Counted from the stretch's first letter, positions 1,195-23,501 are shown. The stretch: 64,000 bases of DNA from Chloroflexota bacterium (GCA_002718395.1 PBEG01000016.1:1003-65002), one strand, 5' to 3'. Made by a program: numbers and translations. Notes: generated from the sequence alone by a model not told the origin.

Positions 1195-2577
1195 TTATTT
1201 CTTCATTGATTCAAAAAAATCATTATTAGTTTTTGTATCTTTCATTTTATTCAAAAGAAACTCAACTGCAGCAATCTCATCCATATCGTGGACAACTTTC
1301 CTAAGAACCCACATTTTTTGAAGCTCCTCTGGATCCATTAGTAGGTCTTCTCGTCTTGTTCCAGATCTATTGATATGAACTGCTGGATATACTCTCTTAT
1401 CGGCGATTCTCCTATCGAGAGCAATTTCCATATTACCCGTACCTTTGAATTCTTCAAAAATCACTTCATCCATTCTAGAACCAGTTTCAACTAGTGCAGT
1501 TGCAATGATTGTTAAGCTTCCACCTTCCTCAAGATTTCTAGCAGCACCAAAAAATCTTTTTGGTTTTTGGAGGGCGTTTGCATCTACGCCACCAGTTAAT
1601 ACCTTACCTGAGGCAGGTGCAACAGTGTTGTATGCTCTCGCTAATCTTGTTATTGAATCTAGAAGAATTACAACGTCTTTTTTATGCTCTGAGAGTCTCT
1701 TGGCTTTCTCCAATACCATATCAGCAACTTGGACATGCCTTGATGCAGGCTCATCAAATGTACTAGAAACTACTTCTCCTCTGACAGTTCTAATCATATC
1801 TGTAACTTCTTCTGGTCTTTCATCTATAAGAAGTACGATTAGATGTACGTCTGGGTAATTTGCTGTAATTGAAGATGCTATATTTTGCAGAAGAATCGTT
1901 TTCCCAGCCTTTGGAGGTGAAACAATTAGTCCTCTTTGTCCCATACCTATGGGTGATGCTAAGTCTATGATCCTTGCAGTTAAGTCTTCGACACTTCCTG
2001 TTCCTTGTTCCAGCTTTAATCTCTCTTCAGGAAAATATGGTGTTAAATTCTCAAACAATGCTTTTGTTCTTACATTCTCTGGATCCTCAAAATTAATTTC
2101 TGAAACTTTTAATAAAGCAAAGTATCGCTCATTGTCTTTAGGAGGCCTGACTGAGCCTGAAAGAGTATCACCAGTTCTAAGATTAAATTTCCTTATTTGG
2201 GTTGGTGAAACATAAACATCATCTGGTCCAGCAATATATGATGTGTCTGATGATCTGAGAAAACCAAATCCATCTTGCAAAATTTCCAAAACACCTTCAC
2301 CAAAGATTCTCTTATCTTCTGCAGCATGCGCTTTCAAAATGGAAAATGTGATATCTTGCCTTCTAGCTCTTGAGATATTTTCAATCCCCATATCTTCAGC
2401 GGTTTTCTGAATCTCTGTTATTGATTTAGTTCTTAACTCAGGAAGACTTAGAACATCATCACCTTCAAGCTCAGATTTCGATATAACGTCATCATCTGTG
2501 AAAGTTGCAGCTCTATCTTGGAAATCCTTCTTATGTCTTGAATTTCTTTTTCTTCTGTTTTTACCGTTTGATGGCAT
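1195..2577 (-). CDS. rho: transcription termination factor Rho (with ~40 aa basic N-terminal extension)
   Basis: Aligns along the full length with E. coli Rho (RNA-binding domain [17 protein letters not shown], Walker [14 protein letters not shown]-terminal NDFFESMKK). The N-terminus [17 protein letters not shown] precedes the conserved start with no internal Met. Confidence 0.95.
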
Positions 2578-11898: not shown

Positions 11899-13617
11899 TT
11901 ATCCCTTCCACATATCATCCATAGTTTGTCCAGCAAGTAGCATTGGTCTTACATCTGCTGATGGATCGATCATCACATCCAATAAGGCAGGACCTTTTTG
12001 TTCCCAAATCCATTCTATTTTTGCTCTAATATCTTCTTTTTCACTAAGCTTATTTGAATTGATCCCAAATCCATTAGCAATTGATCTAAAGTCTTGGGGC
12101 CTGAAGTCACCTGTTGTCGGATCTACACCCCAAGTTATGAGTTGAAATTGAGAAACTATTCCAAGCCTTGAGTTATTGAATACAATAATTTTGATATCCA
12201 GGTCTGAGTCTTTCAAGAATGCTAACTCCTGAATATTCATAAGCGCAGAACCATCGCCAACAATGCATACAATTCTTTTCTCTGGTGATGCCATTGCTGC
12301 TCCGATTGAGGAAGGAATATCATATCCCATTGTTCCATGACCAGCCGAGGTTAAAAATGTGTTAGTTTTAGGCTTAAAAGGGAGATGCCTTGCTGCCCAA
12401 TGTTGATGGCAACCCACACCAGTTACTAGAATTGTTTCATCTTGAGAAATCAGGCCGGCCAGTTTATCTAAAAAGTCTCTAGGTTGTATATTATTAGATC
12501 TCTTCATAGGGATATCATCCAGTCTTTGTTCAATCATGTTTTCCATGCTTGACTTCCAGCTCGAGTCTGAGAAAGACTTATTATGTTCCAAACTCTTTTG
12601 CAAGCCTCTACAAAAAAGATTTACGTCCACATTAATTGGCCAGTCTATGTGTACTCTAGAGTTATCTAATTCTTTTTGATCATTGTTAACAGATATAACT
12701 TTTGCATTACTAGCAAAACTTGTAACCTCTGTACCAGTTTGGCGAACATCAAGCCTGGAACCTAATACTAAAAGAAGGTCACAATTAGCTATAGCAAGGT
12801 TGGCAACCTGATGGCCTGTATGACCTATATATCCTAAAAATCGCTCACTAGATGAATCAAAACTCCCAAGACCTAAGAAGCTTGATACCACTAAAGCATC
12901 CATATTCTTTGAGATAGTCTCTAGCAAACTTGAATCATGAAGAGATAAAGAGCCGTGACCTAACAATATAACTGATCTTTTTGACTCTGATATAGCCTCG
13001 AGTATGCCCTCTTCAATAATTATTTCCTCGCTTTCTGATAGTTTCTCCAGATTTGAGTTGCTTCTTGTTGGTAAATCAAATGAAGAAATTTCTGTTCTTT
13101 GAACGTCCATTGGAAAGTCTAAAACGCAAGGGCCCATTCTACCTTTCACTGTGATATCAAATGCATCTGGGACCTCTGAGAAAACATCATCAGTAGTTAA
13201 AAGACAACTAGATTTCTTTGAAATTGGCTTGGTAATATCAACTGTTGGAGTTTCTTGAAAGCCTCTCTGCCTCACTTCTAGCCGAGTAGTTAAGTCTGCA
13301 GTCCCAATTTGCCCGGTAATAACGATTAATGGAGTTGAGTCATAATATGCATCAGCAAGAGGTGAAATTACATTTGTCACGCCAGGTCCGGATGTAACCA
13401 TAACAACTTGCGGCTTATTTCTTATTCTAGAATATGCCAACGCAGCATAAGCAGAGCCTTGCTCATTGTTAAAGCATTCAATCTTAATATTAAATTTTAT
13501 ACATGCATTAATAAGAGGTGCTATTGTTCCTCCTGGATACACAAATACTCTATCTATGCCTTCCATTACGAATTTATATGCTACCCAATCAGCAATATTA
13601 TCAATATTTCTCTTCAT
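11899..13617 (-). CDS. thiamine-pyrophosphate enzyme, acetolactate synthase large-subunit-like
   Basis: Three-domain ALS architecture, 572 aa. TPP motif IVGDGSALMNIQELAF...N. Pyrimidine-binding domain at the N-terminus. Confidence 0.8.
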   Translation of the reverse strand: MKRNIDNIADWVAYKFVMEGIDRVFVYPGGTIAPLINACIKFNIKIECFNNEQGSAYAALAYSRIRNKPQVVMVTSGPGVTNVISPLADAYYDSTPLIVITGQIGTADLTTRLEVRQRGFQETPTVDITKPISKKSSCLLTTDDVFSEVPDAFDITVKGRMGPCVLDFPMDVQRTEISSFDLPTRSNSNLEKLSESEEIIIEEGILEAISESKRSVILLGHGSLSLHDSSLLETISKNMDALVVSSFLGLGSFDSSSERFLGYIGHTGHQVANLAIANCDLLLVLGSRLDVRQTGTEVTSFASNAKVISVNNDQKELDNSRVHIDWPINVDVNLFCRGLQKSLEHNKSFSDSSWKSSMENMIEQRLDDIPMKRSNNIQPRDFLDKLAGLISQDETILVTGVGCHQHWAARHLPFKPKTNTFLTSAGHGTMGYDIPSSIGAAMASPEKRIVCIVGDGSALMNIQELAFLKDSDLDIKIIVFNNSRLGIVSQFQLITWGVDPTTGDFRPQDFRSIANGFGINSNKLSEKEDIRAKIEWIWEQKGPALLDVMIDPSADVRPMLLAGQTMDDMWKG

Positions 13618-13651
13618 TATTTTTCCTAATATATGCTCAATTTTTCCTAAG

Positions 13652-14755
13652 CTAGGAAGGCTTTTTTCTTGAGCCAGTTAAAAGTAGCATTATTATTAAT
13701 AAAGTAATGTACCCATAAAATAAATTATACTCTTTCAAATTAAAGTGGACTGAAATCATAGCTAGAGTGGCTGTTATCATTGAAATGAAAATAAAAATAA
13801 TTAAAACACTTCTATCAGAAAATCCTGCATTTGAAAGAATATGATGAAAATGTTCTCTATCGGCCAAAAATGGAGATCTTAATGCAATTAATCTTCTAGC
13901 AATTGTCATTAAAGCATCAGTGATGGGAAGAAAAGCAAACCAAATTGCTGATATTGCAGTGATAATTTTTTCTTCTTGAGATAAGAAAATTAAGATCCAT
14001 GCAATTATATGGCCTAGTGCATTTGATCCATGATCTCCAAGAAAGATTTTTCTCTCGACTCCAAAAAAACCTAAATTAAATAGAAGGAAAATAATTAAGC
14101 TTGAGATAATCACTAAACCCATCATGAATATGGTGCCCTGAAAAAAAAGCAGCATAAAAATAGAGGAAACTATAACTATTGCAACTGATGCTGCCAAGCC
14201 GTCTCTTCCATCTAACATGTTAAAAGCATTACATAATCCAACCACACCCAAGATTGTAAAGGGTATGCCGAATCCACCAAGATTAACTATGCCTTGACCA
14301 AATAGATTTCCCAGATCACGAACATATATATCAGTAGTTAAGATTACAATCCAGCTTGCAAGAATTTGTCCTACCAATCTTAATGTCCAAGGTACTTCAA
14401 TTGCCTTAAGCCCGTCTAGTGTCCCTATTATCATAATTGGTAGCAAGGAGGCTATGATATAGATATAGAAAGTATTCACTCCAAAAACAAAAGCGCCATA
14501 AATGATTGAAATAAATAATATTAATCCACCAGTAAGCGGTATCGCCCCTTTATGATCCTTTCTACGACCATCTGCTTCATCTACTAAATTAATACTTTTA
14601 GCTATTGAAGAGGCAATAAATGTAATGACCAATATTCCTATTAAGCCAAGGATAAATGACTGCACTGAAATTAACGGGCCTTCTGAGTATGCGACAATAA
14701 TCACGAGGACATAAATTGATAATACTAAAAAGATACTTAAGTTTTTGAGTATCAA
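13652..14755 (-). CDS. polyprenyl-phosphate HexNAc-1-phosphate transferase (WecA/WbpL/MraY family), initiating glycosyltransferase
   Basis: About 10 TM segments. Motifs NAFNMLDGRDGLAAS, FLGDHGSNALG and REHFHH match the WecA signatures. Confidence 0.85.
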   Translation of the reverse strand: MILKNLSIFLVLSIYVLVIIVAYSEGPLISVQSFILGLIGILVITFIASSIAKSINLVDEADGRRKDHKGAIPLTGGLILFISIIYGAFVFGVNTFYIYIIASLLPIMIIGTLDGLKAIEVPWTLRLVGQILASWIVILTTDIYVRDLGNLFGQGIVNLGGFGIPFTILGVVGLCNAFNMLDGRDGLAASVAIVIVSSIFMLLFFQGTIFMMGLVIISSLIIFLLFNLGFFGVERKIFLGDHGSNALGHIIAWILIFLSQEEKIITAISAIWFAFLPITDALMTIARRLIALRSPFLADREHFHHILSNAGFSDRSVLIIFIFISMITATLAMISVHFNLKEYNLFYGYITLLIIMLLLTGSRKKPS

Positions 14756-14807
14756 GAATTATTCTCCCCAGACTTAATTTATTTCTATAAACTTATTTGA
14801 TAAAAAA

Positions 14808-15581
14808 TTAAGGCTTCCACGGTGCATTTCCACTGCTCCAGAGGCTTTCAAGATAATTTTTGTCCCTCAAAGTATCCATTGGTTGCCAAAAGCCTTGGTG
14901 TTTATATAAGTTGAGTTCTCCAACCTCAACAAGCCTATTTAGGGGCTCATTCTCCCAAGAAGTAGTATCATCATCAATAAAATCAAGACACTTTGGAGAT
15001 AGTACAAAAAATCCACCATTTATAAGGCCGCCATCTCCCTTGGGTTTTTCCATAAACTCAATAACCTTATTCTCATTATGCTTTATAGCACCAAATCTTC
15101 CTGGAGGAGCAACTGCAGTAATAGTTGCTAAATTCCCCTTTTTCTTATGAAAATCAATCAATGAGGTTATATCAATATCACTTAAACCATCTCCATAAGT
15201 GAAACAGAAAAACTCCTCATTCTTTAGATACTTTTTTAGACGCTTCAATCTCCCTCCAGTCATTGTATCTTCACCAGTATCAATCAGGGTTACTTTCCAT
15301 TCTTCGGTATGGCGCTCATGTACCTCCATATTATTATTGACCATATCAAAGGTAACGTCTGAGGTATGAAGAAAGTAGTTAGCGAAATATTCTTTAATTA
15401 CATAACCCTTATACCCACAACAAATTATGAAATCATTCAATCCATATTTTGAGTAGTGTTTCATTAGGTGCCATAGAATAGGTTTTCCTCCTATTTCAAT
15501 CATAGGCTTTGGCTTCAGTGTTGTTTCTTCACTGATCCTAGTACCTAATCCGCCTGCTAATATAACGACCTTCATGCTCAT
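14808..15581 (-). CDS. rfbF: glucose-1-phosphate cytidylyltransferase
   Basis: 257 aa, near-colinear with Salmonella RfbF/DdhA (ILAGGLGTR..KPKPMIEIGGKPILWH..GFWQPMDTLRDK). Confidence 0.9.
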   Translation of the reverse strand: MSMKVVILAGGLGTRISEETTLKPKPMIEIGGKPILWHLMKHYSKYGLNDFIICCGYKGYVIKEYFANYFLHTSDVTFDMVNNNMEVHERHTEEWKVTLIDTGEDTMTGGRLKRLKKYLKNEEFFCFTYGDGLSDIDITSLIDFHKKKGNLATITAVAPPGRFGAIKHNENKVIEFMEKPKGDGGLINGGFFVLSPKCLDFIDDDTTSWENEPLNRLVEVGELNLYKHQGFWQPMDTLRDKNYLESLWSSGNAPWKP

Positions 15582-16549
15582 TACCTTAAATTATATTCTC
15601 TTAGCTTACTTCCAAGCTTACTTTTAACATGATAATAGTTTAAAAAATAATAATACCAAATTACTAATAAGTATAAGGATATCTGATCTTTGAGACCTGA
15701 TTGATTTTCTTTGATAAATGATTTTATGACTGGAAGTGGCTTTTCATCAAACCTTTTATGGGCTTGTTGCAAAGCATGATGTGAGAAGTAATAAAAAATA
15801 TACATATACACCATAATCTTCCTGGGGATTTGTAATTGCCTTACTAGCATTAATACTGAAATAAATTGCTCTAGCTTAGGGTTAGTTGCATAAACTCTTT
15901 TGCCTCTCATTTCAGAGAAATCGTCTTTTTCACCCATTTGAACTATCGCATGAGGGAAATAATATAATGAAGTATCTATCGAATAAGAGATCAAAGCTGC
16001 AGCTGTAGTTGGATAAACGTCTCCTTTGCTTCTACTACAATAATCAATCATGAAATCATGGGCCTGATTGGTCCATATTTTAGTATTTATAACGGTGCTG
16101 CCTATGTGCGCTGTTTCACCTAAGGCATCGTAAAGATACTTATTTCTCTGCCATGAGGCATCTTTATATATTTGACCATCTGAATCATTTACAGACATTA
16201 CTATCAAAGAATATCCATTCCTCTTTTCAAGAAAAGAATATAACTCCTTAAGCCTTTCCTTGATTAAATAATCCTCATCACTTATCACATGGAGATATTT
16301 GCAATTACATAGGTCTATTAACATTTTATAGTTTCTTGATATTCCAACATTTTCATTCTGCTCGAAGAATGTAATTACACTGGTCTCTTTTTTTTCTACA
16401 AAATTCTTAATCTTCTCTTCTTGTGAATTTGAAGAAATAATTATTTGATCAAATATATTTAATTCCAGTGCTTGTTCTATTACCTTGATAGCTGCATCTG
16501 GTCTCTTATATGTTGGTATACCAAGTGCTAACAAACTTTGCTTAGACAT
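15581..16549 (-). CDS. family 2 glycosyltransferase
   Basis: GIPTYKRP N-terminal GT2 signature and DxD-type acidic region. 322 aa. Confidence 0.7.
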   Translation of the reverse strand: MSKQSLLALGIPTYKRPDAAIKVIEQALELNIFDQIIISSNSQEEKIKNFVEKKETSVITFFEQNENVGISRNYKMLIDLCNCKYLHVISDEDYLIKERLKELYSFLEKRNGYSLIVMSVNDSDGQIYKDASWQRNKYLYDALGETAHIGSTVINTKIWTNQAHDFMIDYCSRSKGDVYPTTAAALISYSIDTSLYYFPHAIVQMGEKDDFSEMRGKRVYATNPKLEQFISVLMLVRQLQIPRKIMVYMYIFYYFSHHALQQAHKRFDEKPLPVIKSFIKENQSGLKDQISLYLLVIWYYYFLNYYHVKSKLGSKLREYNLR

Positions 16550-16565
16550 AATGAAATTCTATTTA

Positions 16566-17411
16566 TTACGAATTAAGTATTTGATTAAGGTATTTTCTAT
16601 CGCCCCAGAAACTCTTTGGTTCAAATTCTCTATAGGGATATGCTCCTAAATCAAGATCAATTATTTGGCCGCTCTCATTAATCCACTTCTTAACGAGATC
16701 AACAAGCCTTGTTGGCTCCCCCTTACAAATATTTATGAACCCTAGATTAGGTTTCTTGCATATGATCAATTTTGTTAACACCTCTGTTACTTCATCAACT
16801 GATAGATAATCTAATAATTGATCACCATTTGACATTCTAAATATTTTTTCTCTATTTTTAATAGCTTCATGTAATTGATTATATATTGTCGATGATATTT
16901 GACCTTTTCCATATACGTAAAATAATCTGGCCCAAGTTATATTGAAATTTGTCTTTTTCTGTAAAGCTAAAAGCTCCTGACTCAGTCTCTTCTTTGCAAT
17001 ACCATATTTAGTGATCGGTTGAGTTTCATTATTCTCATTAATCATCCCACTACACATTCCATACTCATAGCATGTTCCTAAAACAAAAACATTATTTACA
17101 CCGCGACCAATTATTTCTCTCAGAAAATTGAGGTGTTCTGGGAGATACTCTTTAACATGTCGGTCAGAATTTACGTTAGTTATATCATTCCATGCTAAGT
17201 GCACAATGGTATCGTAATCATTAGAAATCTCATCGGGCAAAGAATCTTTTCCGCCAATTTCATATTCCTTAATTAACAGTTGCTTATTATGACCTGTACT
17301 AATGCCTTTCTTTGATCTCACGAGAGATAGGACTTCTGTGTCTGATTTCAATAAGGATTCAGTCAAATATTTGCCTAAAAAACCAGTTCCACCTGTAAGA
17401 ATTACTCTCAC
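16566..17411 (-). CDS. NAD(P)-dependent sugar reductase/epimerase (short SDR, CDP-sugar 4-reductase-like). Start GTG at 17411 overlapping the upstream TGA (GTGA)
   Basis: TGGTGFLGK Rossmann motif immediately after the GTG. YGIAK YxxxK. ~280 aa, like the RfbS/Prt class. The ORF-track start at 17459 overlaps the upstream gene by 52 bp. Confidence 0.6.
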   Translation of the reverse strand: MRVILTGGTGFLGKYLTESLLKSDTEVLSLVRSKKGISTGHNKQLLIKEYEIGGKDSLPDEISNDYDTIVHLAWNDITNVNSDRHVKEYLPEHLNFLREIIGRGVNNVFVLGTCYEYGMCSGMINENNETQPITKYGIAKKRLSQELLALQKKTNFNITWARLFYVYGKGQISSTIYNQLHEAIKNREKIFRMSNGDQLLDYLSVDEVTEVLTKLIICKKPNLGFINICKGEPTRLVDLVKKWINESGQIIDLDLGAYPYREFEPKSFWGDRKYLNQILNS

Positions 17412-18652
17412 TCTAAAATTTCTAGTGTGGGAACAGCTATAACAAATCTTCCTCCCCACTCAGATATATAATTATTTTGATCAATTACCTCTTTTGCAAT
17501 ATTCCAAGGAAATATAAATACATAGTCTGGTTTATCTTTTTTTAAGTAATCAATATCTAGTATAGGTATATGAGAACCAGGCATATACTTACCTTGCTTA
17601 GATTCTGCCATATCACATATATATGGAATTAAATCTGGTTTGACGCCAGCATAATTAAGAAGTGTATTACCTTTTGCAGCAGCGCCATATCCTGCTACTT
17701 TTTTGTTTTCTTTCTTTGCTTGCAATAAGAAGCTCAGAAAAGAATTTTTGATTTCGTCTATTTCACTCTGGAATGTTTTATATGAGTCGAGGTTGTCAAG
17801 ACCCATCTCTTTTTCTTCATTAAGAATTTTATCAATGTATTCAGCATTATTTTGTATACTTGCGTCTTTCTTACAACCGTATATTCTCAAACTACCACAA
17901 TGTGTGGGAATCTTTTCAACATCATATATCCGCAAACCATGTCTTTCGAAGATATTGATAACTGTAGTTAGAGAATAATATGAAAAATGTTCATGATAGA
18001 GTGAATCAAATTGTTTTTCTCTTAACATATTAACTAAATGAGTAAACTCGATTGTTATTGTTCCATCATCTTTCAAAAGTAGAAAAAGTCCTTTGGTGAA
18101 ACTTTTTATATCAGGTACATGAGCATAAACATTATTTGCAATTATAAGGTCAGCTTTAGATTCCTTAGATACGTCTATTGCAGTTTCCTTCCCAAAAAAC
18201 CTTTCCTCAACCCTTATGCCTTTTGATCGAGCAATTTCAGCAGTAGATTTTGTTGGCTCTATGCCTAAGCAAGGGATTTCTCTTTTAAGGAAGTTCTTCA
18301 AAAGATATCCATCGTTAGATGCAATTTCAACAACAAAGCTATTACTATCAAGAGTTAATCTTTCTATGATTTTATTGGAGTAATCTTCGCAGTGATCGAG
18401 AAAACCTTTAGATGTTGAAGAAAGATAAGCATAGTCTTCATTAAAGATAGTCTCTGGAAGCACAAAATCTTGAGTCTGAACCAGAAAACAAGACTCACAA
18501 ACGTCTACTCTTAATGGAAAATAATGCTCCAACTGATTCAAATCATTTTCAGTCAGATATGCATTAGATGGCGGCGAGAAGCCTAAATCAGCAAAACTTA
18601 TGGATAGTGGATTATCACAGTTTCTGCATTTCATTATTTTGCTCTTAGTCAT
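17408..18652 (-). CDS. NDP-hexose C-methyltransferase (TylC3/NovU family; Zn-ribbon + Methyltransf_13/14-like)
   Basis: N-terminal CxxC...CxxC (CRNCDN...CESC). SAM fold in the middle. C-terminal C-MT domain. ~414 aa. Confidence 0.65.
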   Translation of the reverse strand: MTKSKIMKCRNCDNPLSISFADLGFSPPSNAYLTENDLNQLEHYFPLRVDVCESCFLVQTQDFVLPETIFNEDYAYLSSTSKGFLDHCEDYSNKIIERLTLDSNSFVVEIASNDGYLLKNFLKREIPCLGIEPTKSTAEIARSKGIRVEERFFGKETAIDVSKESKADLIIANNVYAHVPDIKSFTKGLFLLLKDDGTITIEFTHLVNMLREKQFDSLYHEHFSYYSLTTVINIFERHGLRIYDVEKIPTHCGSLRIYGCKKDASIQNNAEYIDKILNEEKEMGLDNLDSYKTFQSEIDEIKNSFLSFLLQAKKENKKVAGYGAAAKGNTLLNYAGVKPDLIPYICDMAESKQGKYMPGSHIPILDIDYLKKDKPDYVFIFPWNIAKEVIDQNNYISEWGGRFVIAVPTLEILE

Positions 18653-18676
18653 TCAAAAAAATTTGTGTAATGATTA

Positions 18677-19918
18677 TTATGGCACGTAGTGGGGCTCTGG
18701 CAGTGGGTGTAAAAACTTACCGCCTTTTTCTAAATATAATGCTTGTTGCTCAATAATTTCATCGGCAAAATTCCACGCACATAATAATATGACATCAGGT
18801 AAGTCCTCATGAATATGTTCGGTTGGAAAAATAGGAATATGAGTACCAGGAGTTATTTTGCCGTGCTTTAATTCACTCTTATCAACAACATAATCTACAA
18901 CTGAGTTATCAATTTGACAAAATTGCAAAAGACATTGTCCCTTTCCTGAAGCGCCATAGACTGCAATCTTTTTCCCTTGTTGTTTAAGCTCAATGATTTT
19001 CTTGCTTATTGAATCTTTGTGAGCAATAGCTCTATTTGCAAATTCGTTCCATGAAGAAATTTCATATAATCCCAATTCCCTTTCTTCATCAATCAATTGC
19101 TGAACACGATTTGATATTTTCCTTGGTCCGTCTTTATGCTGAAGATAAACTCTGATTGATCCTCCATGAATCCAAATCCTCTCCACATCAAATACTTCCA
19201 TTCCAAATCTTGAATATAATTTACAAAAGCTATCAAGTGAATGATATCCAATATGTTCATGAAAGACCTGGTCATACTGCAGTTCTTCAAACATGGTTTG
19301 TAGATGTGGCACCTCTATGACTGCAAAGCCATCTTGAGAAAGTGTAATGCTTATACCTTCTGCAAATCCATGAAGATCTGCAACATGAGCCATTACATTT
19401 CTTCCGATAACAATATCAAAAGTCCCATGATTATTTAGTATTGATTCTGCGCTCTCTAAATTAAAGAAACCAGCAATAGAATTTATCCCTCGATTATTTG
19501 CTATTTCTACAATATTTTCAGCTGGATCAATTCCGAGTACTTCTGAGCCGTTATCCTTGAAAATAGATAATACGGTACCATCATTACTTGCTACCTCTAG
19601 TACTTTTGGAGCATGTTGATTTTCATTTTCATGATGTGTTTTACGAATGCTGTCATGAAACTCTTTTGCATACTTAATGACAGCATCCGAAAATCCTGTT
19701 GCATAAATATAATCCGAAAATAAATCTCCTGGATCTAGGATTTCATCAATTTGAAGATGATTACATTCTCTGCAAAAACATAGATTCATTGGAAATTTCT
19801 TCTCATTTTCAATTTCATCAATGGAATCAAGAAAACTGTCAGAAAGTGCCATTTCTTTATAATCTAAGATAACCTCAAGAGCGTCAGCACCACAAATTCT
19901 GCAATTATTTATTTTCAT
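18677..19918 (-). CDS. NDP-hexose C-methyltransferase paralog (TylC3/NovU family)
   Basis: Same architecture as the adjacent gene (CRICGAD...CREC, VLEVASNDG, C-terminal domain). ~30% identity to its neighbour by eye. Confidence 0.65.
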   Translation of the reverse strand: MKINNCRICGADALEVILDYKEMALSDSFLDSIDEIENEKKFPMNLCFCRECNHLQIDEILDPGDLFSDYIYATGFSDAVIKYAKEFHDSIRKTHHENENQHAPKVLEVASNDGTVLSIFKDNGSEVLGIDPAENIVEIANNRGINSIAGFFNLESAESILNNHGTFDIVIGRNVMAHVADLHGFAEGISITLSQDGFAVIEVPHLQTMFEELQYDQVFHEHIGYHSLDSFCKLYSRFGMEVFDVERIWIHGGSIRVYLQHKDGPRKISNRVQQLIDEERELGLYEISSWNEFANRAIAHKDSISKKIIELKQQGKKIAVYGASGKGQCLLQFCQIDNSVVDYVVDKSELKHGKITPGTHIPIFPTEHIHEDLPDVILLCAWNFADEIIEQQALYLEKGGKFLHPLPEPHYVP

Positions 19919-19968
19919 ATTAATACTCGTTTAATCTAATAAAATTCATTTGGCCTTGACTAAAATGA

Positions 19969-21066
19969 TCAAGTACCAATCCATGGTTGTCCTCTATCAT
20001 TTGCAAGCTTACTATATTCCTCTATCTGATCCATACTAAATGAAAACATGTCATGCACAGATTGCTGGGAATCATGTTTATACCATTCTGCTGTGAATCT
20101 TATGCACTCATGAAAATTAAGAGTTGGCTCCCAATCAAGCAATCTTTTAGCTTTAGTGCAATCTAGTTGAAGTAAACATGATTCATTGAATTGTTGATTC
20201 CTATCTATGGATATTTCTCCCGAACCCCAAACTGAAATAATCTCTTTTGCGACCTCGTTGACAGTTTTGGTCTCCCCAACTTTTGGTCCAAAATTCCATC
20301 CGGTGCTAAAAATATCCTGACCTGTTGATAAATGCATACCTAATAATAGATAGCCGCTAAGTGGCTCTAGAACATGTTGCCAAGGTCTAGTGGACTCAGG
20401 ATTACGAATAATTATAGGATCATCATTATTTAATGCAGTTATGCAGTCTGGGACTAATCGGAACTTAGATCTGTCTCCTCCCCCTATAACATTACCTGCT
20501 CTAGTAGAGGCAATATGCTTATTTGTGCCTCTAAAAAAACTTTCTATGTAGCTTGCAATTACAAGTTCTGCTCCTCCCTTGCTAGCACTGTATGGGTCAT
20601 CTCCGCCTATGGTATCGTCTTCGACATAGCCCTCATCTTTTTCAACATTTCTATAACACTTGTCACTAGTAATTATTACAGCAGTGCATTTTTTCTCATA
20701 GTTTCTTATTGCTTCCAAAATATTGAGTGTTCCAACAATATTTGTCTCAAATGTATAATGTGGGTTCTCAAAGCTAACTCCCACTATTGCTTGTGCAGCA
20801 AGATGGAAAATAAAATCTGGCTTAAAAGAATCTACCTCTCTCTGAACTGATTCATAATTTCTTATATCTAAATACTTATAATCAATCTTATCTGCCAGCT
20901 TTATTGAATTAAAATGATCGTCCATATACTCAGATTCAAGTGCTATACCATATACCTCAGCACCTAGCTCTTTTAACCAAAGGCAAAGCCAAGAACCCTT
21001 AAATCCTGTACATCCTGTAACAAGAACCTTTTTATTCCTGTAAACATCATTAAAAAACTTGAACAT
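19969..21066 (-). CDS. rfbG: CDP-glucose 4,6-dehydratase
   Basis: VLVTGCTGFKGSWLCLWL, IRNPESTRPWQHVLEPLSGYL and WNFGP align with Salmonella RfbG/DdhB. Confidence 0.9.
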   Translation of the reverse strand: MFKFFNDVYRNKKVLVTGCTGFKGSWLCLWLKELGAEVYGIALESEYMDDHFNSIKLADKIDYKYLDIRNYESVQREVDSFKPDFIFHLAAQAIVGVSFENPHYTFETNIVGTLNILEAIRNYEKKCTAVIITSDKCYRNVEKDEGYVEDDTIGGDDPYSASKGGAELVIASYIESFFRGTNKHIASTRAGNVIGGGDRSKFRLVPDCITALNNDDPIIIRNPESTRPWQHVLEPLSGYLLLGMHLSTGQDIFSTGWNFGPKVGETKTVNEVAKEIISVWGSGEISIDRNQQFNESCLLQLDCTKAKRLLDWEPTLNFHECIRFTAEWYKHDSQQSVHDMFSFSMDQIEEYSKLANDRGQPWIGT

Positions 21067-21105
21067 ATATTTGCTTCCTATTCATAATTTATTAGAGATA
21101 AAACA

Positions 21106-21909
21106 TTATTTTGTAATCTTATATGCTGAATCAATGAGTCTTTTTGGAACAAAAGTATACATTTTTGCAAAAACTAATGATATTGCTCCCGAAATTGGTT
21201 TTCTCCATGAAAAGTTTTTTCTTCGTGCAAGAAAATTATACTGAAAGTTTTCACCAAATCTTTTGTCACTAAAATTTCCTACAACCCTATAACTTAGAAG
21301 AAATTGTTCAAGATTATAAATCTTATGGTTGTTGTTCATTAACCTAAGCCAAAGCTCTAGATCTTCTGCTTTTGAAAAATCCTCATCATATAAAAACCCT
21401 TCATCTATTATACCTCTTCTCATCATCACAGTGGGATGTGCGAGTGGATTCCTAAAAATTGACCATAATTTAAGTGCGGATGAAGATTTAGGATACTTTC
21501 TTGATGATATTTCTAATCCATTCTCATCAATTATCTGAATTGCTGAACCTACAATTGAATAGCGAGGATTATTTTCAAGAAAATCTACCTGAGATTCTAG
21601 CCTTATCGGATGAGATATATCATCAGGGTCCATCCTAGCTATAAATTTTCCTTTAGCTTTCTCTAATCCTAGATTCAGAGCTTGTGAGAAAATTTTTTTC
21701 TCCTCTGTTCTAAGAACCTTAATTCTATGATCCATCGAAGATATTTGATTAATTATATCTACTGTCTTTTGCTCAGTGCTATCATCCACGATAATTAGCT
21801 CGATATTCTTCAATGTTTGCTGAGTAATGCTATTGATAGATCGTTTGAGAAGTCTAACATCTTCATTGAAAGCAACCAGAATGACTGAAACTATTGGTTC
21901 GTCTTGCAT
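21106..21909 (-). CDS. family 2 glycosyltransferase
   Basis: VSVILVAFNE...IVDDSTEQ GT2 N-terminal motifs. 267 aa. Confidence 0.7.
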   Translation of the reverse strand: MQDEPIVSVILVAFNEDVRLLKRSINSITQQTLKNIELIIVDDSTEQKTVDIINQISSMDHRIKVLRTEEKKIFSQALNLGLEKAKGKFIARMDPDDISHPIRLESQVDFLENNPRYSIVGSAIQIIDENGLEISSRKYPKSSSALKLWSIFRNPLAHPTVMMRRGIIDEGFLYDEDFSKAEDLELWLRLMNNNHKIYNLEQFLLSYRVVGNFSDKRFGENFQYNFLARRKNFSWRKPISGAISLVFAKMYTFVPKRLIDSAYKITK

Positions 21910-21945
21910 GAAAGCATTTAGAAGAAAATGATTTTTCTATTATTG

Positions 21946-22521
21946 CTAGTAGAGAACTCTCATCATGCAGTGATCTATGATCATATGAAGATCTTCTGCG
22001 ATCTGCATATCATGAATAGGAACATTAACATTATATTGAGCAATTGAACCTAATGTTCCTCCACTGTATCCCGTCAATCCAATAGTTGTCCCACCATTTT
22101 CATTGGCATATTCAACTGCCTTGATAACATTCATCGAATTGCCTGATCCAGATATACCAAATACAACATCTCCCTCTTTGAAATGATTCTTTAGCTGCTC
22201 TACAAAAATGTCCTCATAAGAGACATCATTTGCATAAGCCATCATTGATGGAATATTGTCATTTAAGGAAAAAAACTTATATCTCTTTTGGTTTTCCTGA
22301 GTAAGGCCTTTATTGAAGTCGCAAACATAATGTGAAGCCGTAGCGGCTGAACCACCATTACCCATAATGAATATAGTCTTATCTCCATCTTTCGATTCCT
22401 CAAGAACATTCATTAGCGTATTCATGTCATCTAATGAAACTTTATCTATAGTATCTTTAAGCTTAGAAAAGTACTCCAAGATGTCATTTTTATAATCTTT
22501 ATTGTATTGAACTGCTTCCAT
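21946..22521 (-). CDS. gmhA: phosphoheptose (sedoheptulose-7-phosphate) isomerase, SIS domain
   Basis: FIMGNGGSAATASH, GISGSGNS SIS motifs. 191 aa. Confidence 0.85.
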   Translation of the reverse strand: MEAVQYNKDYKNDILEYFSKLKDTIDKVSLDDMNTLMNVLEESKDGDKTIFIMGNGGSAATASHYVCDFNKGLTQENQKRYKFFSLNDNIPSMMAYANDVSYEDIFVEQLKNHFKEGDVVFGISGSGNSMNVIKAVEYANENGGTTIGLTGYSGGTLGSIAQYNVNVPIHDMQIAEDLHMIIDHCMMRVLY

Positions 22522-23501
22522 CAGTTTTCCATTAAGTTAATTATTTTTGACCCTTTTGACTCAAAATTGAATTTCAATTCAAAGAAATCAATCATATTCT
22601 GCCTAAATTCTTCTTGTTTTTCCAGCGGACAGTAAAATAATATGAATCCTCCTCCTCCAGCTCCACATAGTTTTCCTCCAAGAGCGCCTGACTTAATTCC
22701 CCTATCATAAATATCATCAATGCCTGTATTAGAGATCTCACTAGTCAAACTTTTCTTCAGATTCCATCCTTCATGCAATATCTGGCCAAAGTCATCCAAT
22801 CTTCCTCCCTCAAGCGACTCTCTCAATTTATCAGCCTGTCTGACCATTAAATTCATTTGATCAATTTTATTTTTTTTTGAAATTTCTTCATTCTGCTTTT
22901 TTAGAATTTTTGAAGCAGATCTTGTTCCCTCTGTGAAGATCATGATCAAATTTCTATCTAACTCTTCTTTGAGATTATTCTGCATCTTAATAGGTTCAAC
23001 ATTGACTGTTCCGTCAGGAAAAAATTTAATGTGATTCAATCCTCCATATGATGCAGCATACTGATCCTGCTTCCCTATAGGATTTTTCAGACGATCAATT
23101 TCAATGTAACAAGCCTTACTAGCTAATTCCTCTTTAGATAAATTCTCACCAATATAACTATATACAACATTTAGTAGACCAACCGTAAATGAGCTGCTTG
23201 AGCCTAAACCGGTTCCAGATGGAGCATCTGCTATTGAGTTAATATCTATGCCCGTAATGCCTTTCTCTTCCAGTACTGCTTTAAAGATTTGATGTTCAAT
23301 TTCTTCAATAGAGGAAACTAATTCTGTTTTAGAATATTTTAACTGTATCTTCTCTCTGAAAAAGAACGGATGCATAGCGAGATATACATATTTATCAATT
23401 GTTGTACTTACAACAGCTCCTATTTGATCTTGATAGAATGATTGAAGATCAGTTCCCCCTCCGGCAAATGATATTCTAAAAGGCGTTCTTGAAATCAACA
23501 T
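22521..23501 (-). CDS. hddA: GHMP-family sugar kinase, D-glycero-alpha-D-manno-heptose 7-phosphate kinase-like
   Basis: PSGTGLGSSSS GHMP motif, RISFAGGGTD N-terminus. Sits between gmhA and hddC-gmhB. Confidence 0.75.
   Translation of the reverse strand: MLISRTPFRISFAGGGTDLQSFYQDQIGAVVSTTIDKYVYLAMHPFFFREKIQLKYSKTELVSSIEEIEHQIFKAVLEEKGITGIDINSIADAPSGTGLGSSSSFTVGLLNVVYSYIGENLSKEELASKACYIEIDRLKNPIGKQDQYAASYGGLNHIKFFPDGTVNVEPIKMQNNLKEELDRNLIMIFTEGTRSASKILKKQNEEISKKNKIDQMNLMVRQADKLRESLEGGRLDDFGQILHEGWNLKKSLTSEISNTGIDDIYDRGIKSGALGGKLCGAGGGGFILFYCPLEKQEEFRQNMIDFFELKFNFESKGSKIINLMEN

What the first reader, a model, noticed from the sequence alone, without database searches (positions are those of the whole stretch)
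14808..21066. CDP-glucose pathway with two tandem TylC3/NovU-type C-methyltransferases: candidate doubly C-methylated 6-deoxyhexose
rfbF (CDP-glucose synthase) and rfbG (CDP-glucose 4,6-dehydratase) bracket a GT2, a short SDR reductase (GTG start in a GTGA overlap) and two paralogous ~413-aa Zn-ribbon C-methyltransferases. There is no E1 (RfbH, the PLP-dependent 3-dehydrase) or E3 3-deoxygenation enzyme nearby. Together this suggests C-methylation of CDP-4-keto-6-deoxyglucose at two positions, for example C-3 and C-5 (NovU-like gem-dimethyl), followed by 4-ketoreduction. This is inference. CDP-linked branched sugars are rare (vinelose is the classic case) and a di-C-methyl sugar would be unusual.
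Basis: inference. Interest (0 to 1): 0.75.

Follow-up and report, generated by a model that had tools for sequence, protein, structure and literature searches.

The report
CDP-sugar operon with two C-methyltransferases
A six-gene block in a marine bacterium's surface-polysaccharide island makes CDP-4-keto-6-deoxyglucose and encodes two different, intact sugar C-methyltransferases, so it may build a 6-deoxy sugar with two extra carbon-linked methyl groups, which has never been reported; the product itself remains a prediction.

Summary
Window 21066-14808 (minus strand) encodes RfbG, MT-A, MT-B, a short SDR (GTG start in a GTGA overlap), a GT2-type transferase and RfbF. The window has no E1 or E3.

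Both MTs are full-length homologues of solved sugar 3-C-methyltransferases, with zinc ribbon, SAM motif and catalytic Glu-His. They are 32% identical and fall in two separate, well-supported clades.

New findings:
- MT-A belongs to a distinct subfamily. The tyrosine matching TcaB9 Tyr222 is Phe, and a Tyr sits four residues upstream (YDQVFHEH).
- MT-A orthologues sit next to RfbG, and one appears fused to it.
- In the loci I retrieved, every locus with two or more C-methyltransferases contains one MT-A-type gene. About 99 loci with only canonical enzymes have a single one.
- The six-gene set recurs at about 60% identity, once in a different order.

The best reading is sequential methylation at the two carbons next to the C-4 ketone (C-3 and C-5), then 4-ketoreduction and transfer. 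This is inference. I could not assign regiochemistry: SgcA3, inferred to act at C-5, is 50% identical to the C-3 enzyme MtmC. Two separate mono-methyl sugars remain a serious rival. The neighbouring ThDP enzyme belongs to a pseudaminic-acid-type cassette, not to this pathway.

The parts
19969..21066 (-). [quoted passage not shown] It makes CDP-4-keto-6-deoxy-D-glucose, the substrate that allows methylation at the carbons next to the ketone.
   Evidence: TIGR02622 equivalog 439.4 bits, cut-off 278.45. Orthologues at 43-60% identity lie directly upstream of MT-A-type genes in other genomes.
18677..19918 (-). MT-A, sugar C-methyltransferase of a distinct subfamily (413 aa). It has the signature YDQVFHEH, with Phe at the position of TcaB9 Tyr222.
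   Evidence: PF08421, a class I methyltransferase domain and PF08484. Best solved homologue is MtmC 4rv9, 301 bits. TcaB9 Y76, H181, E224 and H225 are conserved and Y222 is Phe. The signature occurs in 112 of 120 top homologues and in no other clade examined. Clade bootstrap 98. An apparent RfbG-MT-A fused ORF exists in L010.
17408..18634 (-). MT-B, canonical sugar C-methyltransferase (408 aa; the ORF extends to 18652).
   Evidence: PF08421 74 bits and PF08484 205 bits. Best solved homologue is KijD1 5t64, 269 bits. All five TcaB9 active-site residues are conserved. Clade bootstrap 100. Orthologues at 56-62% identity have a roughly 280-aa SDR immediately (L088, the JGI contig, L089/L090) or two genes (L087) downstream, and lie with rfbF/rfbG.
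16566..17411 (-). Short extended SDR (281 aa), the presumed NDP-4-ketosugar reductase. It is translationally coupled to MT-B.
   Evidence: PF01370 95.7 bits. TGGTGFLG and YGIAK motifs. GTGA start/stop overlap. Best solved homologue is GDP-6-deoxy-D-lyxo-4-hexulose reductase 2pk3, only 45 bits. 43% identical to the SDR at the same position in L089. The function is inferred.
15581..16549 (-). GT2-type (GT-A fold) glycosyltransferase of a very small family (322 aa), the presumed transferase for the module's sugar.
   Evidence: PF00535 33.8 bits, cut-off 23.3. Invariant D91-E92-D93. AlphaFold pLDDT 91.3; Foldseek hits WrtF, TarP and TarS at E 3e-12. Only 10 representatives at E<=1e-30 among 1.84 billion. 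It recurs in the homologous module L089, and a 324-aa protein holds the same position in the JGI contig.
14808..15581 (-). rfbF/ddhA, glucose-1-phosphate cytidylyltransferase (257 aa).
   Evidence: TIGR02623 equivalog 456.2 bits, cut-off 300.25. TAATG overlap with the GT2 stop.
21106..21909 (-). Context only: a second GT2 glycosyltransferase (267 aa) directly upstream of rfbG. It is not shown to belong to the module.
   Evidence: PF00535 110 bits. Present at the same position in the 82%-identity relative.
13652..14755 (-). Context only: WecA-like polyprenyl-phosphate sugar-phosphate transferase (initiating transferase).
   Evidence: PF00953 92 bits; TIGR02380 204 bits, below its cut-off.

Best explanation
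The block is a self-contained pathway for a CDP-activated, C-branched 6-deoxyhexose.

Proposed steps:
1. RfbF makes CDP-glucose.
2. RfbG oxidises and dehydrates it to CDP-4-keto-6-deoxy-D-glucose.
3. The 4-ketone makes the protons at C-3 and C-5 acidic. MT-A, the enzyme tied to RfbG, transfers a methyl from SAM to one of these carbons through an enolate.
4. MT-B, the canonical enzyme, methylates the other carbon.
5. The SDR coupled to MT-B reduces the 4-ketone.
6. The co-conserved GT2 transfers the resulting CDP-6-deoxy-3,5-di-C-methylhexose to the growing glycan.

Basis for each part:
- Shown by sequence: the enzyme families, intact catalytic and cofactor motifs, and conserved synteny.
- Inferred from the known chemistry of TcaB9/TylC3/NovU-type enzymes: methylation next to a 4-ketone. 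Each of C-3 and C-5 carries only one proton, so two methylations of one molecule would have to fall on C-3 and C-5.
- Pure inference: both act on the same molecule, the order MT-A then MT-B, which enzyme takes which carbon, and the stereochemistry.
For: - RfbF and RfbG pass NCBIfam equivalog cut-offs.
- Both MTs match only sugar 3-C-methyltransferases in the PDB, at E 1e-56 to 1e-89 over full length. Both keep the four zinc-ribbon cysteines, the E(V/I)ASNDG SAM motif and TcaB9 Tyr76, His181, Glu224 and His225.
- Both are equally conserved in relatives on shared contigs: 94%/92% and 82%/82%.
- The same gene set recurs at about 60% identity in the same order in L089, which holds five of the six genes before the contig ends. 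All six recur in a different order in a 78.5-kb JGI contig.
- MT-A-type genes sit directly after RfbG orthologues in 13 loci, and one is an apparent fusion. MT-B-clade genes lie with rfbF/rfbG and have a roughly 280-aa SDR immediately or two genes downstream.
- Pairing is specific. 8 of 14 MT-A-type anchors have a second MT within 5 kb. None of about 99 loci holding only canonical enzymes has two. Partners come from at least two different canonical clades, and another tandem is seen.
- The module holds only one SDR and one dedicated GT.
- MT-A-containing loci are depleted in RmlC-like epimerases compared with single-MT canonical CDP loci: 3/11 against 23/31, Fisher p=0.0105. That fits a quaternary C-5.
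Against: - No product data exist for any member of either clade.
- Regiochemistry is not resolved. SgcA3 (inferred C-5) is 50% identical to the C-3 enzyme MtmC and carries the canonical motif. The MT-A signature is therefore not a known C-5 mark.
- Both MT types also occur alone with rfbF/rfbG. Each can make its own mono-methyl sugar, so the pair could supply two sugars.
- Some tandem loci (L012, L015, L021) carry an RmlC-like cupin right after the two MTs. That is hard to reconcile with quaternary C-3 and C-5.
- The epimerase statistic rests on few, partly related loci and a crude HMM.
- Loci were retrieved with MT-A-biased patterns.
- MT-A lacks the tyrosine matching TcaB9 Tyr222.
Confidence: 0.42

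Rival explanations
1. Parallel branches. CDP-4-keto-6-deoxyglucose is a branch point. MT-A makes one mono-C-methyl sugar and MT-B makes a different one (another carbon or configuration). Both are reduced, by the one SDR or by other SDRs of the island, and both are incorporated into the polysaccharide.
For: Each MT type occurs alone in complete-looking CDP cassettes: L008-L011 for MT-A, L087 and L088 for MT-B. Two GT2 genes flank rfbG, at 21909-21106 and 16549-15581. The island contains many further SDRs. Sharing rfbF/rfbG would also explain why one MT-A-type and one canonical gene are paired.
Against: The conserved module carries only one SDR and one dedicated GT. Single MT-A cassettes have their own adjacent SDR of a different type, and this is missing here.
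Confidence: 0.28
2. One of the two MTs serves another nucleotide-sugar pathway of the island. Candidate substrates are GDP-4-keto-6-deoxymannose, dTDP-4-keto-6-deoxyglucose or a 4-keto-6-deoxyheptose.
For: The island also encodes Gmd plus an Fcl-like protein, RmlBDAC, and a heptose module with a 4,6-dehydratase-like SDR. C-methyl sugars derived from GDP-mannose have been proposed for Coxiella virenose (PMC3539893).
Against: Both clades are consistently next to rfbF/rfbG in unrelated genomes that lack those other pathways nearby.
Confidence: 0.1
3. MT-A is not acting as a methyltransferase here. Given the changed active-site tyrosine, it could be a ketoreductase or epimerase, or a non-catalytic partner of the canonical enzyme. 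The closest solved homologue, MtmC, is described as a bifunctional methyltransferase and 4-ketoreductase (my recollection of the literature, not checked here).
For: Tyr222 to Phe is a clade hallmark. The closest solved homologue is MtmC.
Against: The SAM motif, His181, Glu224 and His225 are invariant in the clade. MT-A-type genes occur as the only MT in rfbF/rfbG/SDR cassettes, where a methyltransferase role is the simplest reason for their presence.
Confidence: 0.1
4. The neighbouring ThDP enzyme (13617-11899) is YerE-like and adds a carbon branch at C-4 of the CDP-4-keto sugar, so the end product would be a yersiniose-type sugar.
For: It is a ThDP enzyme below the acetolactate synthase cut-off (411.9 bits against 538.35) with no small subunit, and it lies two genes from rfbF. 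YerE-like enzymes branch CDP-4-keto sugars (PMC12247030).
Against: Its orthologues (56-77% identity) travel with a FabG-type SDR and an ATP-grasp ligase; the NeuB-like gene lies downstream in L173 and upstream in L174, and the unknown protein plus GH57 gene are seen in L173 only. They sit beside PseB/PseC/PseF-type genes, next to flagellin genes in Methylomonas rapida, with no rfbF/rfbG present. It scores higher against plant acetohydroxyacid synthase (291 bits) than against 5ahk (250 bits), which I take to be PpYerE. It is absent from the homologous module in the JGI contig.
Confidence: 0.04

Closest known systems
TcaB9, KijD1, MtmC and TylC3: NDP-hexose 3-C-methyltransferases of actinomycete antibiotic pathways
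   Same: The three-part architecture is the same: zinc ribbon, class I SAM domain and PF08484 C-terminal domain. Homology runs over the full length (200-301 bits). The catalytic Glu-His pair, His181 and Tyr76 are conserved.
   Different: Those enzymes use dTDP-linked 2,6-dideoxy or 3-amino sugars, and each pathway has one such enzyme. Here the context is CDP-glucose in a surface-polysaccharide island, with two enzymes. Both fall outside the actinomycete clades. MT-A has Phe in place of Tyr222.
NovU (noviose), TiaS2 and SgcA3: C-5 methylation giving 5,5-gem-dimethyl sugars
   Same: They belong to the same enzyme family, and methylation is again next to a 4-ketone. SgcA3 from the C-1027 cluster is 35.5% identical to MT-A at 295 bits. 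JGI's automated naming gives several MT-A-clade proteins the NovU/MtmC orthology label.
   Different: Those sugars carry one added methyl position, are dTDP- or GDP-linked, and decorate antibiotics. SgcA3 has the canonical FDTIYHEH motif, so the MT-A signature is not shared. No NovU or TiaS2 sequence was available to me. The C-5 role of SgcA3 is my recollection of the literature, inferred from the product structure.
Vinelose pathway (CDP-6-deoxy-3-C-methyl-2-O-methyl-L-talose of Azotobacter vinelandii) and the common ddhA-ddhB-C-methyltransferase cassette (for example S. meliloti SMb21416-21418)
   Same: CDP activation, RfbF/RfbG and a PF08484 methyltransferase. The single-MT MT-B-type cassettes with an RmlC-like epimerase, an SDR and in one case a TylF-type O-methyltransferase (L087, L088) look like this.
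   Different: Those have one methyltransferase. No gene-to-sugar assignment for vinelose turned up in the searchable literature. The window module has a second, MT-A-type enzyme and no epimerase.
3,6-dideoxyhexose pathway (RfbF, RfbG, E1/RfbH, E3, then reductase or epimerase)
   Same: The first two enzymes and the CDP-4-keto-6-deoxyglucose intermediate.
   Different: E1 and E3 are absent from the whole window, so there is no 3-deoxygenation.

Membership tests
Sugar C-methyltransferase family (TylC3/TcaB9 type) | N-terminal four-cysteine zinc-ribbon domain (PF08421) | tested here: met
   MT-A 54.2 bits and MT-B 74.0 bits, cut-off 31.3. CxxC...CxxC is visible in both.
Sugar C-methyltransferase family (TylC3/TcaB9 type) | Class I SAM-binding domain with motif I and an acidic residue after strand 2 | tested here: met
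   VLEVASNDG/LGIDP in MT-A and VVEIASNDG/LGIEP in MT-B, aligned to VEIGCNDG/LGFEP of TcaB9. PF13489 hits.
Sugar C-methyltransferase family (TylC3/TcaB9 type) | C-terminal PF08484 domain | tested here: met
   185.7 bits (MT-A) and 205 bits (MT-B), cut-off 23.5.
Sugar C-methyltransferase family (TylC3/TcaB9 type) | TcaB9 active-site residues Tyr76, His181, Tyr222, Glu224 and His225. The residue list is from my memory of the Holden laboratory papers. Numbering was mapped from PDB chain 3ndi with an offset of 2. | tested here: inconclusive
   MT-B has 5 of 5. MT-A has 4 of 5, with Tyr222 replaced by Phe and a Tyr four residues upstream. This holds clade-wide.
Sugar C-methyltransferase family (TylC3/TcaB9 type) | SAM-dependent C-methylation of an NDP-4-ketosugar, and its position (C-3 or C-5) | not testable with these tools
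   This needs enzyme assays. The phylogeny does not separate C-3 from C-5 enzymes.
CDP-glucose entry pathway (RfbF/DdhA and RfbG/DdhB) | Scores above the NCBIfam equivalog cut-offs TIGR02623 and TIGR02622 | tested here: met
   456.2 bits against 300.25, and 439.4 bits against 278.45.
3,6-dideoxyhexose (ascarylose/abequose-type) pathway | E1 (RfbH/DdhC, PMP and iron-sulphur dehydrase) and E3 (DdhD reductase) | tested here: not met
   The only DegT protein is a PseC equivalog. It scores 136.6 bits on the RfbH model against a cut-off of 423. No ferredoxin-reductase-type ORF was found.
YerE-type C-4 branched sugars (yersiniose, erwiniose) | A ThDP-dependent YerE-like enzyme genetically linked to the CDP-4-ketosugar genes | tested here: not met
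   The ThDP enzyme's orthologues travel with Pse-type genes and without rfbF/rfbG.
Noviose-type pathway (NovT/U/V/W/S) | dTDP activation, an RmlC-like epimerase, a C-5 methyltransferase and a 4-ketoreductase | tested here: not met
   Activation here is by CDP. The module has no cupin epimerase; the only RmlC is in the rml operon at 47661-47104. Whether either MT acts at C-5 cannot be tested here.
GT2 (GT-A fold) glycosyltransferases | PF00535 above the gathering score, a DXD motif and a GT-A fold | tested here: met
   33.8 bits against 23.3. Invariant D91-E92-D93. pLDDT 91.3, with Foldseek matches to WrtF, TarP, TarS and SpsA at probability 1.0.

The most novel reading that the evidence does not exclude
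The module makes CDP-6-deoxy-3,5-di-C-methylhexose. This would be a sugar with a 5,5-gem-dimethyl group and a tertiary C-3 alcohol, a class not reported from any organism as far as I found. MT-A-type enzymes (YDQVFHEH) would then be a widespread, uncharacterised subfamily dedicated to the 'other' carbon next to the ketone. That would make noviose-like gem-dimethyl sugars common components of environmental bacterial and archaeal cell surfaces, and no longer rarities confined to antibiotics.
Probability: 0.3. Interest if true: 0.75.

Novelty: new variant of a known kind. Interest (0 to 1): 0.55.

Why it matters
C-methyl branched sugars are known almost only from actinomycete antibiotics and a few pathogens' lipopolysaccharides. 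5,5-gem-dimethyl sugars are described as rare and are reported only from aminocoumarins and fidaxomicin (PMC12035602).

If the module makes a di-C-methyl sugar, it adds a new sugar class. It would also supply two complementary CDP-dependent C-methyltransferases for glycoengineering.

Whatever the product turns out to be, two results stand on sequence data alone:
- There is a large, uncharacterised MT-A subfamily with a rearranged active-site tyrosine.
- Tandem C-methyltransferases always include one MT-A-type member.

Both point to a clear, cheap in vitro experiment.

Tried and rejected
1. YerE-like role for the adjacent ThDP enzyme. Rejected on synteny: it belongs to a conserved cassette that travels with PseB/PseC/PseF-type genes.

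2. Assigning C-3 or C-5 by phylogeny. No NovU, CloU, CouU or TiaS2 sequences could be obtained. The one presumed C-5 enzyme available (SgcA3) is 50% identical to the C-3 enzyme MtmC, so clades do not track regiochemistry.

3. The argument that 'no cupin epimerase in the module means a quaternary C-5'. It gets only weak statistical support (p=0.0105) and is contradicted by L012, L015 and L021.

4. Matching the window SDR to MT-B-linked or MT-A-linked reductases. Inconclusive: 24% identity to the L088 SDR and weaker to the others.

5. Literature searches for vinelose genes, CDP-linked C-methyltransferases and di-C-methyl sugars. No relevant hits. The TcaB9 mutagenesis paper was not retrievable.

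6. Promoter and terminator scan of 13500-22600. Counts were no higher than in shuffled sequence, so it is uninformative.

7. A shared contig length suggested a further MT-A/MT-B pair (P0103/P0146). It turned out to be a coincidence.

Full report
**Where the window comes from.** All genes from about 3.9 to 55.4 kb lie on the minus strand. They form one very large surface-polysaccharide island:
- a NusG/RfaH-like gene at its head
- Wza and Wzz
- rmlBDAC
- an ABC transporter
- PseB/PseC/PseF equivalogs
- Gmd plus an Fcl-like protein
- a heptose module
- several glycosyltransferases and a Wzy-like protein

The sequence is identical to Tara Oceans metagenome contigs. It is also identical to a 65.7-kb contig of a MAG that GenBank labels 'Chloroflexi bacterium' (proteins MBI51959-MBI52011). 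The Rho protein, however, clusters at 90% identity or more with proteins from MAGs labelled Marinimicrobia. I treat the taxon label as doubtful.

**The observation.**
- RfbG (21066-19969) and RfbF (15581-14808) pass NCBIfam equivalog cut-offs by wide margins.
- Both methyltransferases carry PF08421, a class I SAM domain and PF08484.
- The SDR starts at a GTG that overlaps the MT-B stop as GTGA.
- The GT2 stop overlaps the rfbF start as TAATG.
- The weak GT2 call (33.8 bits) is backed by an invariant D-E-D motif in its small family. It is also backed by a confident model (pLDDT 91.3) that matches GT-A glycosyltransferases such as WrtF, TarP and TarS.
- E1 and E3 are absent from the whole window. 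The only DegT-family protein is a PseC equivalog.

**Are both methyltransferases real enzymes?** In the PDB each matches only sugar 3-C-methyltransferases, over the full length. MT-A scores 301 bits against MtmC. MT-B scores 269 bits against KijD1. Both score 195-233 bits against TcaB9.

In a five-way alignment both keep the zinc-ribbon cysteines and the SAM motif. Both keep the residues matching TcaB9 Tyr76, His181, Glu224 and His225. The residue list is from my memory of the TcaB9 literature; the numbering was mapped from chain 3ndi.

They are 32% identical to each other. Relatives on shared contigs keep both genes at equal identity, 94/92% and 82/82%. Neither looks like a decaying copy.

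**A new point: MT-A is a distinct subfamily.** At the position of TcaB9 Tyr222, MT-A has Phe, and a Tyr sits four residues upstream (YDQVFHEH).
- The signature is present in 112 of the 120 best MT-A homologues.
- It is absent from all 120 best MT-B homologues, from MtmC, KijD1, TcaB9 and SgcA3, and from every other family member I retrieved.
- In a neighbour-joining tree the MT-A clade has bootstrap 98 and the MT-B clade 100. The actinomycete reference enzymes lie outside both.

**Synteny.** MT-A-type genes in GTDB genomes and metagenomes lie directly after an RfbG orthologue of 43-60% identity.
- They are sometimes the only methyltransferase, together with rfbF and an SDR (L008, L009, L011).
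- In one Methanosarcinales MAG there is a single ORF: RfbG, a poly-Asn linker, then MT-A. It contains no Ns, though an in-frame ATG precedes the MT part.

MT-B-clade genes (56-62% identity) lie with rfbF and rfbG and have a roughly 280-aa SDR immediately or two genes downstream. In single-MT cassettes an RmlC-like cupin is also present (L087, L088).

The window's gene set recurs at about 60% identity in the same order in L089, which holds five of the six genes before the contig ends. All six recur as MT-B, SDR, RfbG, MT, 324-aa protein, RfbF in a 78.5-kb JGI contig.

Tandem methyltransferases also occur in other settings:
- Acidobacteriota and Dehalococcoidia MAGs (rfbG-MT-MT-rfbF), where the partner belongs to a third clade
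- Lake Tanganyika contigs with three MT genes
- a contig where the pair is followed by an FkbH-like gene

**Pairing rule.** I counted anchors with at least 1.5 kb on both sides. 8 of 14 MT-A-type genes have another family member within 5 kb. Among 109 other anchors, only 10 have a partner, and all ten loci contain an MT-A-type gene. So none of about 99 loci holding only canonical enzymes has two.

Two caveats apply. The loci were retrieved with MT-A-biased patterns, and several are close relatives of each other. Even so, the pattern argues that the MT-A-type enzyme does something a canonical enzyme does not.

**What it most likely does.** Enzymes of this family methylate a carbon next to the 4-ketone of an NDP-4-keto-6-deoxy sugar. 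In CDP-4-keto-6-deoxyglucose only C-3 and C-5 qualify, and each has a single proton. If both enzymes act on one molecule, the product after 4-ketoreduction is therefore a CDP-6-deoxy-3,5-di-C-methylhexose.

Four things fit a linear pathway:
- the single SDR and single dedicated GT in the conserved module
- the coupling of MT-A to RfbG
- the coupling of MT-B to the SDR
- the gene order

MT-A-containing loci are also depleted in RmlC-like epimerases compared with canonical single-MT CDP loci: 3/11 against 23/31, p=0.0105. That would fit loss of the C-5 stereocentre. But three tandem loci do carry a cupin, so I give this little weight.

**What I could not settle.** Regiochemistry is open. The only presumed C-5 enzyme I could obtain is SgcA3 of the C-1027 cluster. 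Its role is inferred from the 5,5-dimethyl sugar and is my recollection of the literature. SgcA3 is 50% identical to the C-3 enzyme MtmC and has the canonical motif. Clade membership therefore does not predict the carbon.

Both MT types also occur alone. Two separate mono-methyl sugars drawn from a shared precursor pool is thus a serious rival.

**The neighbouring ThDP enzyme.** An acetolactate-synthase-like protein lies two genes beyond rfbF and raised the possibility of YerE-type C-4 branching (PMC12247030). Its orthologues travel with a FabG-type SDR and an ATP-grasp ligase. The NeuB-like gene lies downstream in Methylomonas rapida and upstream in L174. The unknown protein and GH57 gene are seen in Methylomonas only. 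These genes sit beside PseB/PseC/PseF-type genes, next to flagellin genes in Methylomonas rapida, with no rfbF/rfbG nearby. I assign the ThDP enzyme to a nonulosonic-acid pathway and not to this module.

**Comparison with what is known, and novelty.** Single ddhA-ddhB-C-methyltransferase cassettes are annotated, for example on S. meliloti pSymB (PMC4053727). They are common among the loci I retrieved. Full-text searches found no paper on vinelose genes, on C-methyltransferases acting on CDP-linked sugars, or on di-C-methyl sugars. These searches do not cover most subscription journals.

I rate the finding a new variant of a known kind. The enzyme family and the chemistry are established. The CDP-linked two-enzyme combination, the MT-A subfamily and the predicted product are not. 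Interest is moderate to good (0.55): the prediction is specific and cheap to test, but it rests entirely on sequence and synteny.

Noticed in passing
window 13617-6172 (minus strand); L173 9001-16498; L174 9001-12674: In the window and in Methylomonas rapida (L173), an acetolactate-synthase-like ThDP enzyme, FabG-type SDR, ATP-grasp (LAL_C2) ligase, short NeuB-like synthase, unknown ~283-313-aa protein and GH57-like protein form one block. L174 keeps only the ThDP-SDR-ATP-grasp core, with its NeuB-like gene upstream. In M. rapida the block sits with PseB/PseC/PseF-like genes right next to flagellin genes. It is probably a pathway for an unusually acylated pseudaminic-acid-type sugar. The role of the ThDP enzyme is unknown.
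   Followed up: partly
window 18677-19918 and homologues (A1; L007-L021, L089-L096): The MT-A subfamily signature YDQVFHEH: the tyrosine matching TcaB9 Tyr222 is replaced by Phe, and a Tyr appears four residues earlier. It is invariant across bacterial and archaeal members.
   Followed up: yes
L010 4946-7375: An apparent single ORF fuses RfbG to an MT-A-type methyltransferase through a poly-Asn linker in a Methanosarcinales MAG. There are no Ns, but the (AAT)n run and an in-frame ATG mean an assembly or annotation artefact is not excluded.
   Followed up: partly
L093 7287-10887; L094 7899-13765: Lake metagenome contigs carry two (L093) or three (L094) PF08484 methyltransferase genes in one locus. 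One is MT-A-type, one is a YDQVY intermediate type and, in L094, one is canonical. They are interleaved with an RfbG-like dehydratase.
   Followed up: no
window 15581-16549; A2; L175: The module's GT2 belongs to a very small family, with only 10 representatives at E<=1e-30 among 1.84 billion. In L175 a homologue is followed by a 446-aa protein without Pfam match and a hexapeptide acyltransferase. The same pair occurs 20 kb away in the window (38606-36684).
   Followed up: partly
window 27718-21946: A heptose module: GmhA-like isomerase, GHMP kinase, a fused nucleotidyltransferase plus GmhB-type phosphatase (416 aa), a 4,6-dehydratase-like SDR and two more SDRs. This suggests a 6-deoxyheptose.
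   Followed up: no
window 45285-42386 and 42369-38719: PseB, PseC and PseF equivalogs are followed by an ATP-grasp protein, an unknown 298-aa protein and a 551-aa NHL-repeat protein. The same trio lies upstream of the homologous CDP module in the JGI 78.5-kb contig.
   Followed up: no
window 52498-51950, 55415-52554, 59309-57114: A NusG/RfaH-like gene sits at the head of the co-directional island. Upstream of it lie a 953-aa Wza-type exporter and a YjbH-family protein. This is consistent with one long antiterminated operon in a diderm organism.
   Followed up: no
window 1195-2577 (Rho) and the whole contig: GenBank labels the source MAG 'Chloroflexi bacterium'. The Rho protein's 90% cluster also contains proteins from MAGs labelled Marinimicrobia and Gammaproteobacteria. 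Together with the outer-membrane export genes, this suggests the taxonomic label may be wrong.
   Followed up: partly
contig of P0084 (ENA ERZ27297570): An MT-A-like gene and a second PF08484 methyltransferase are followed by an FkbH_N-domain protein and an 80-aa protein that may be a carrier protein. This hints at an acylated branched sugar.
   Followed up: no
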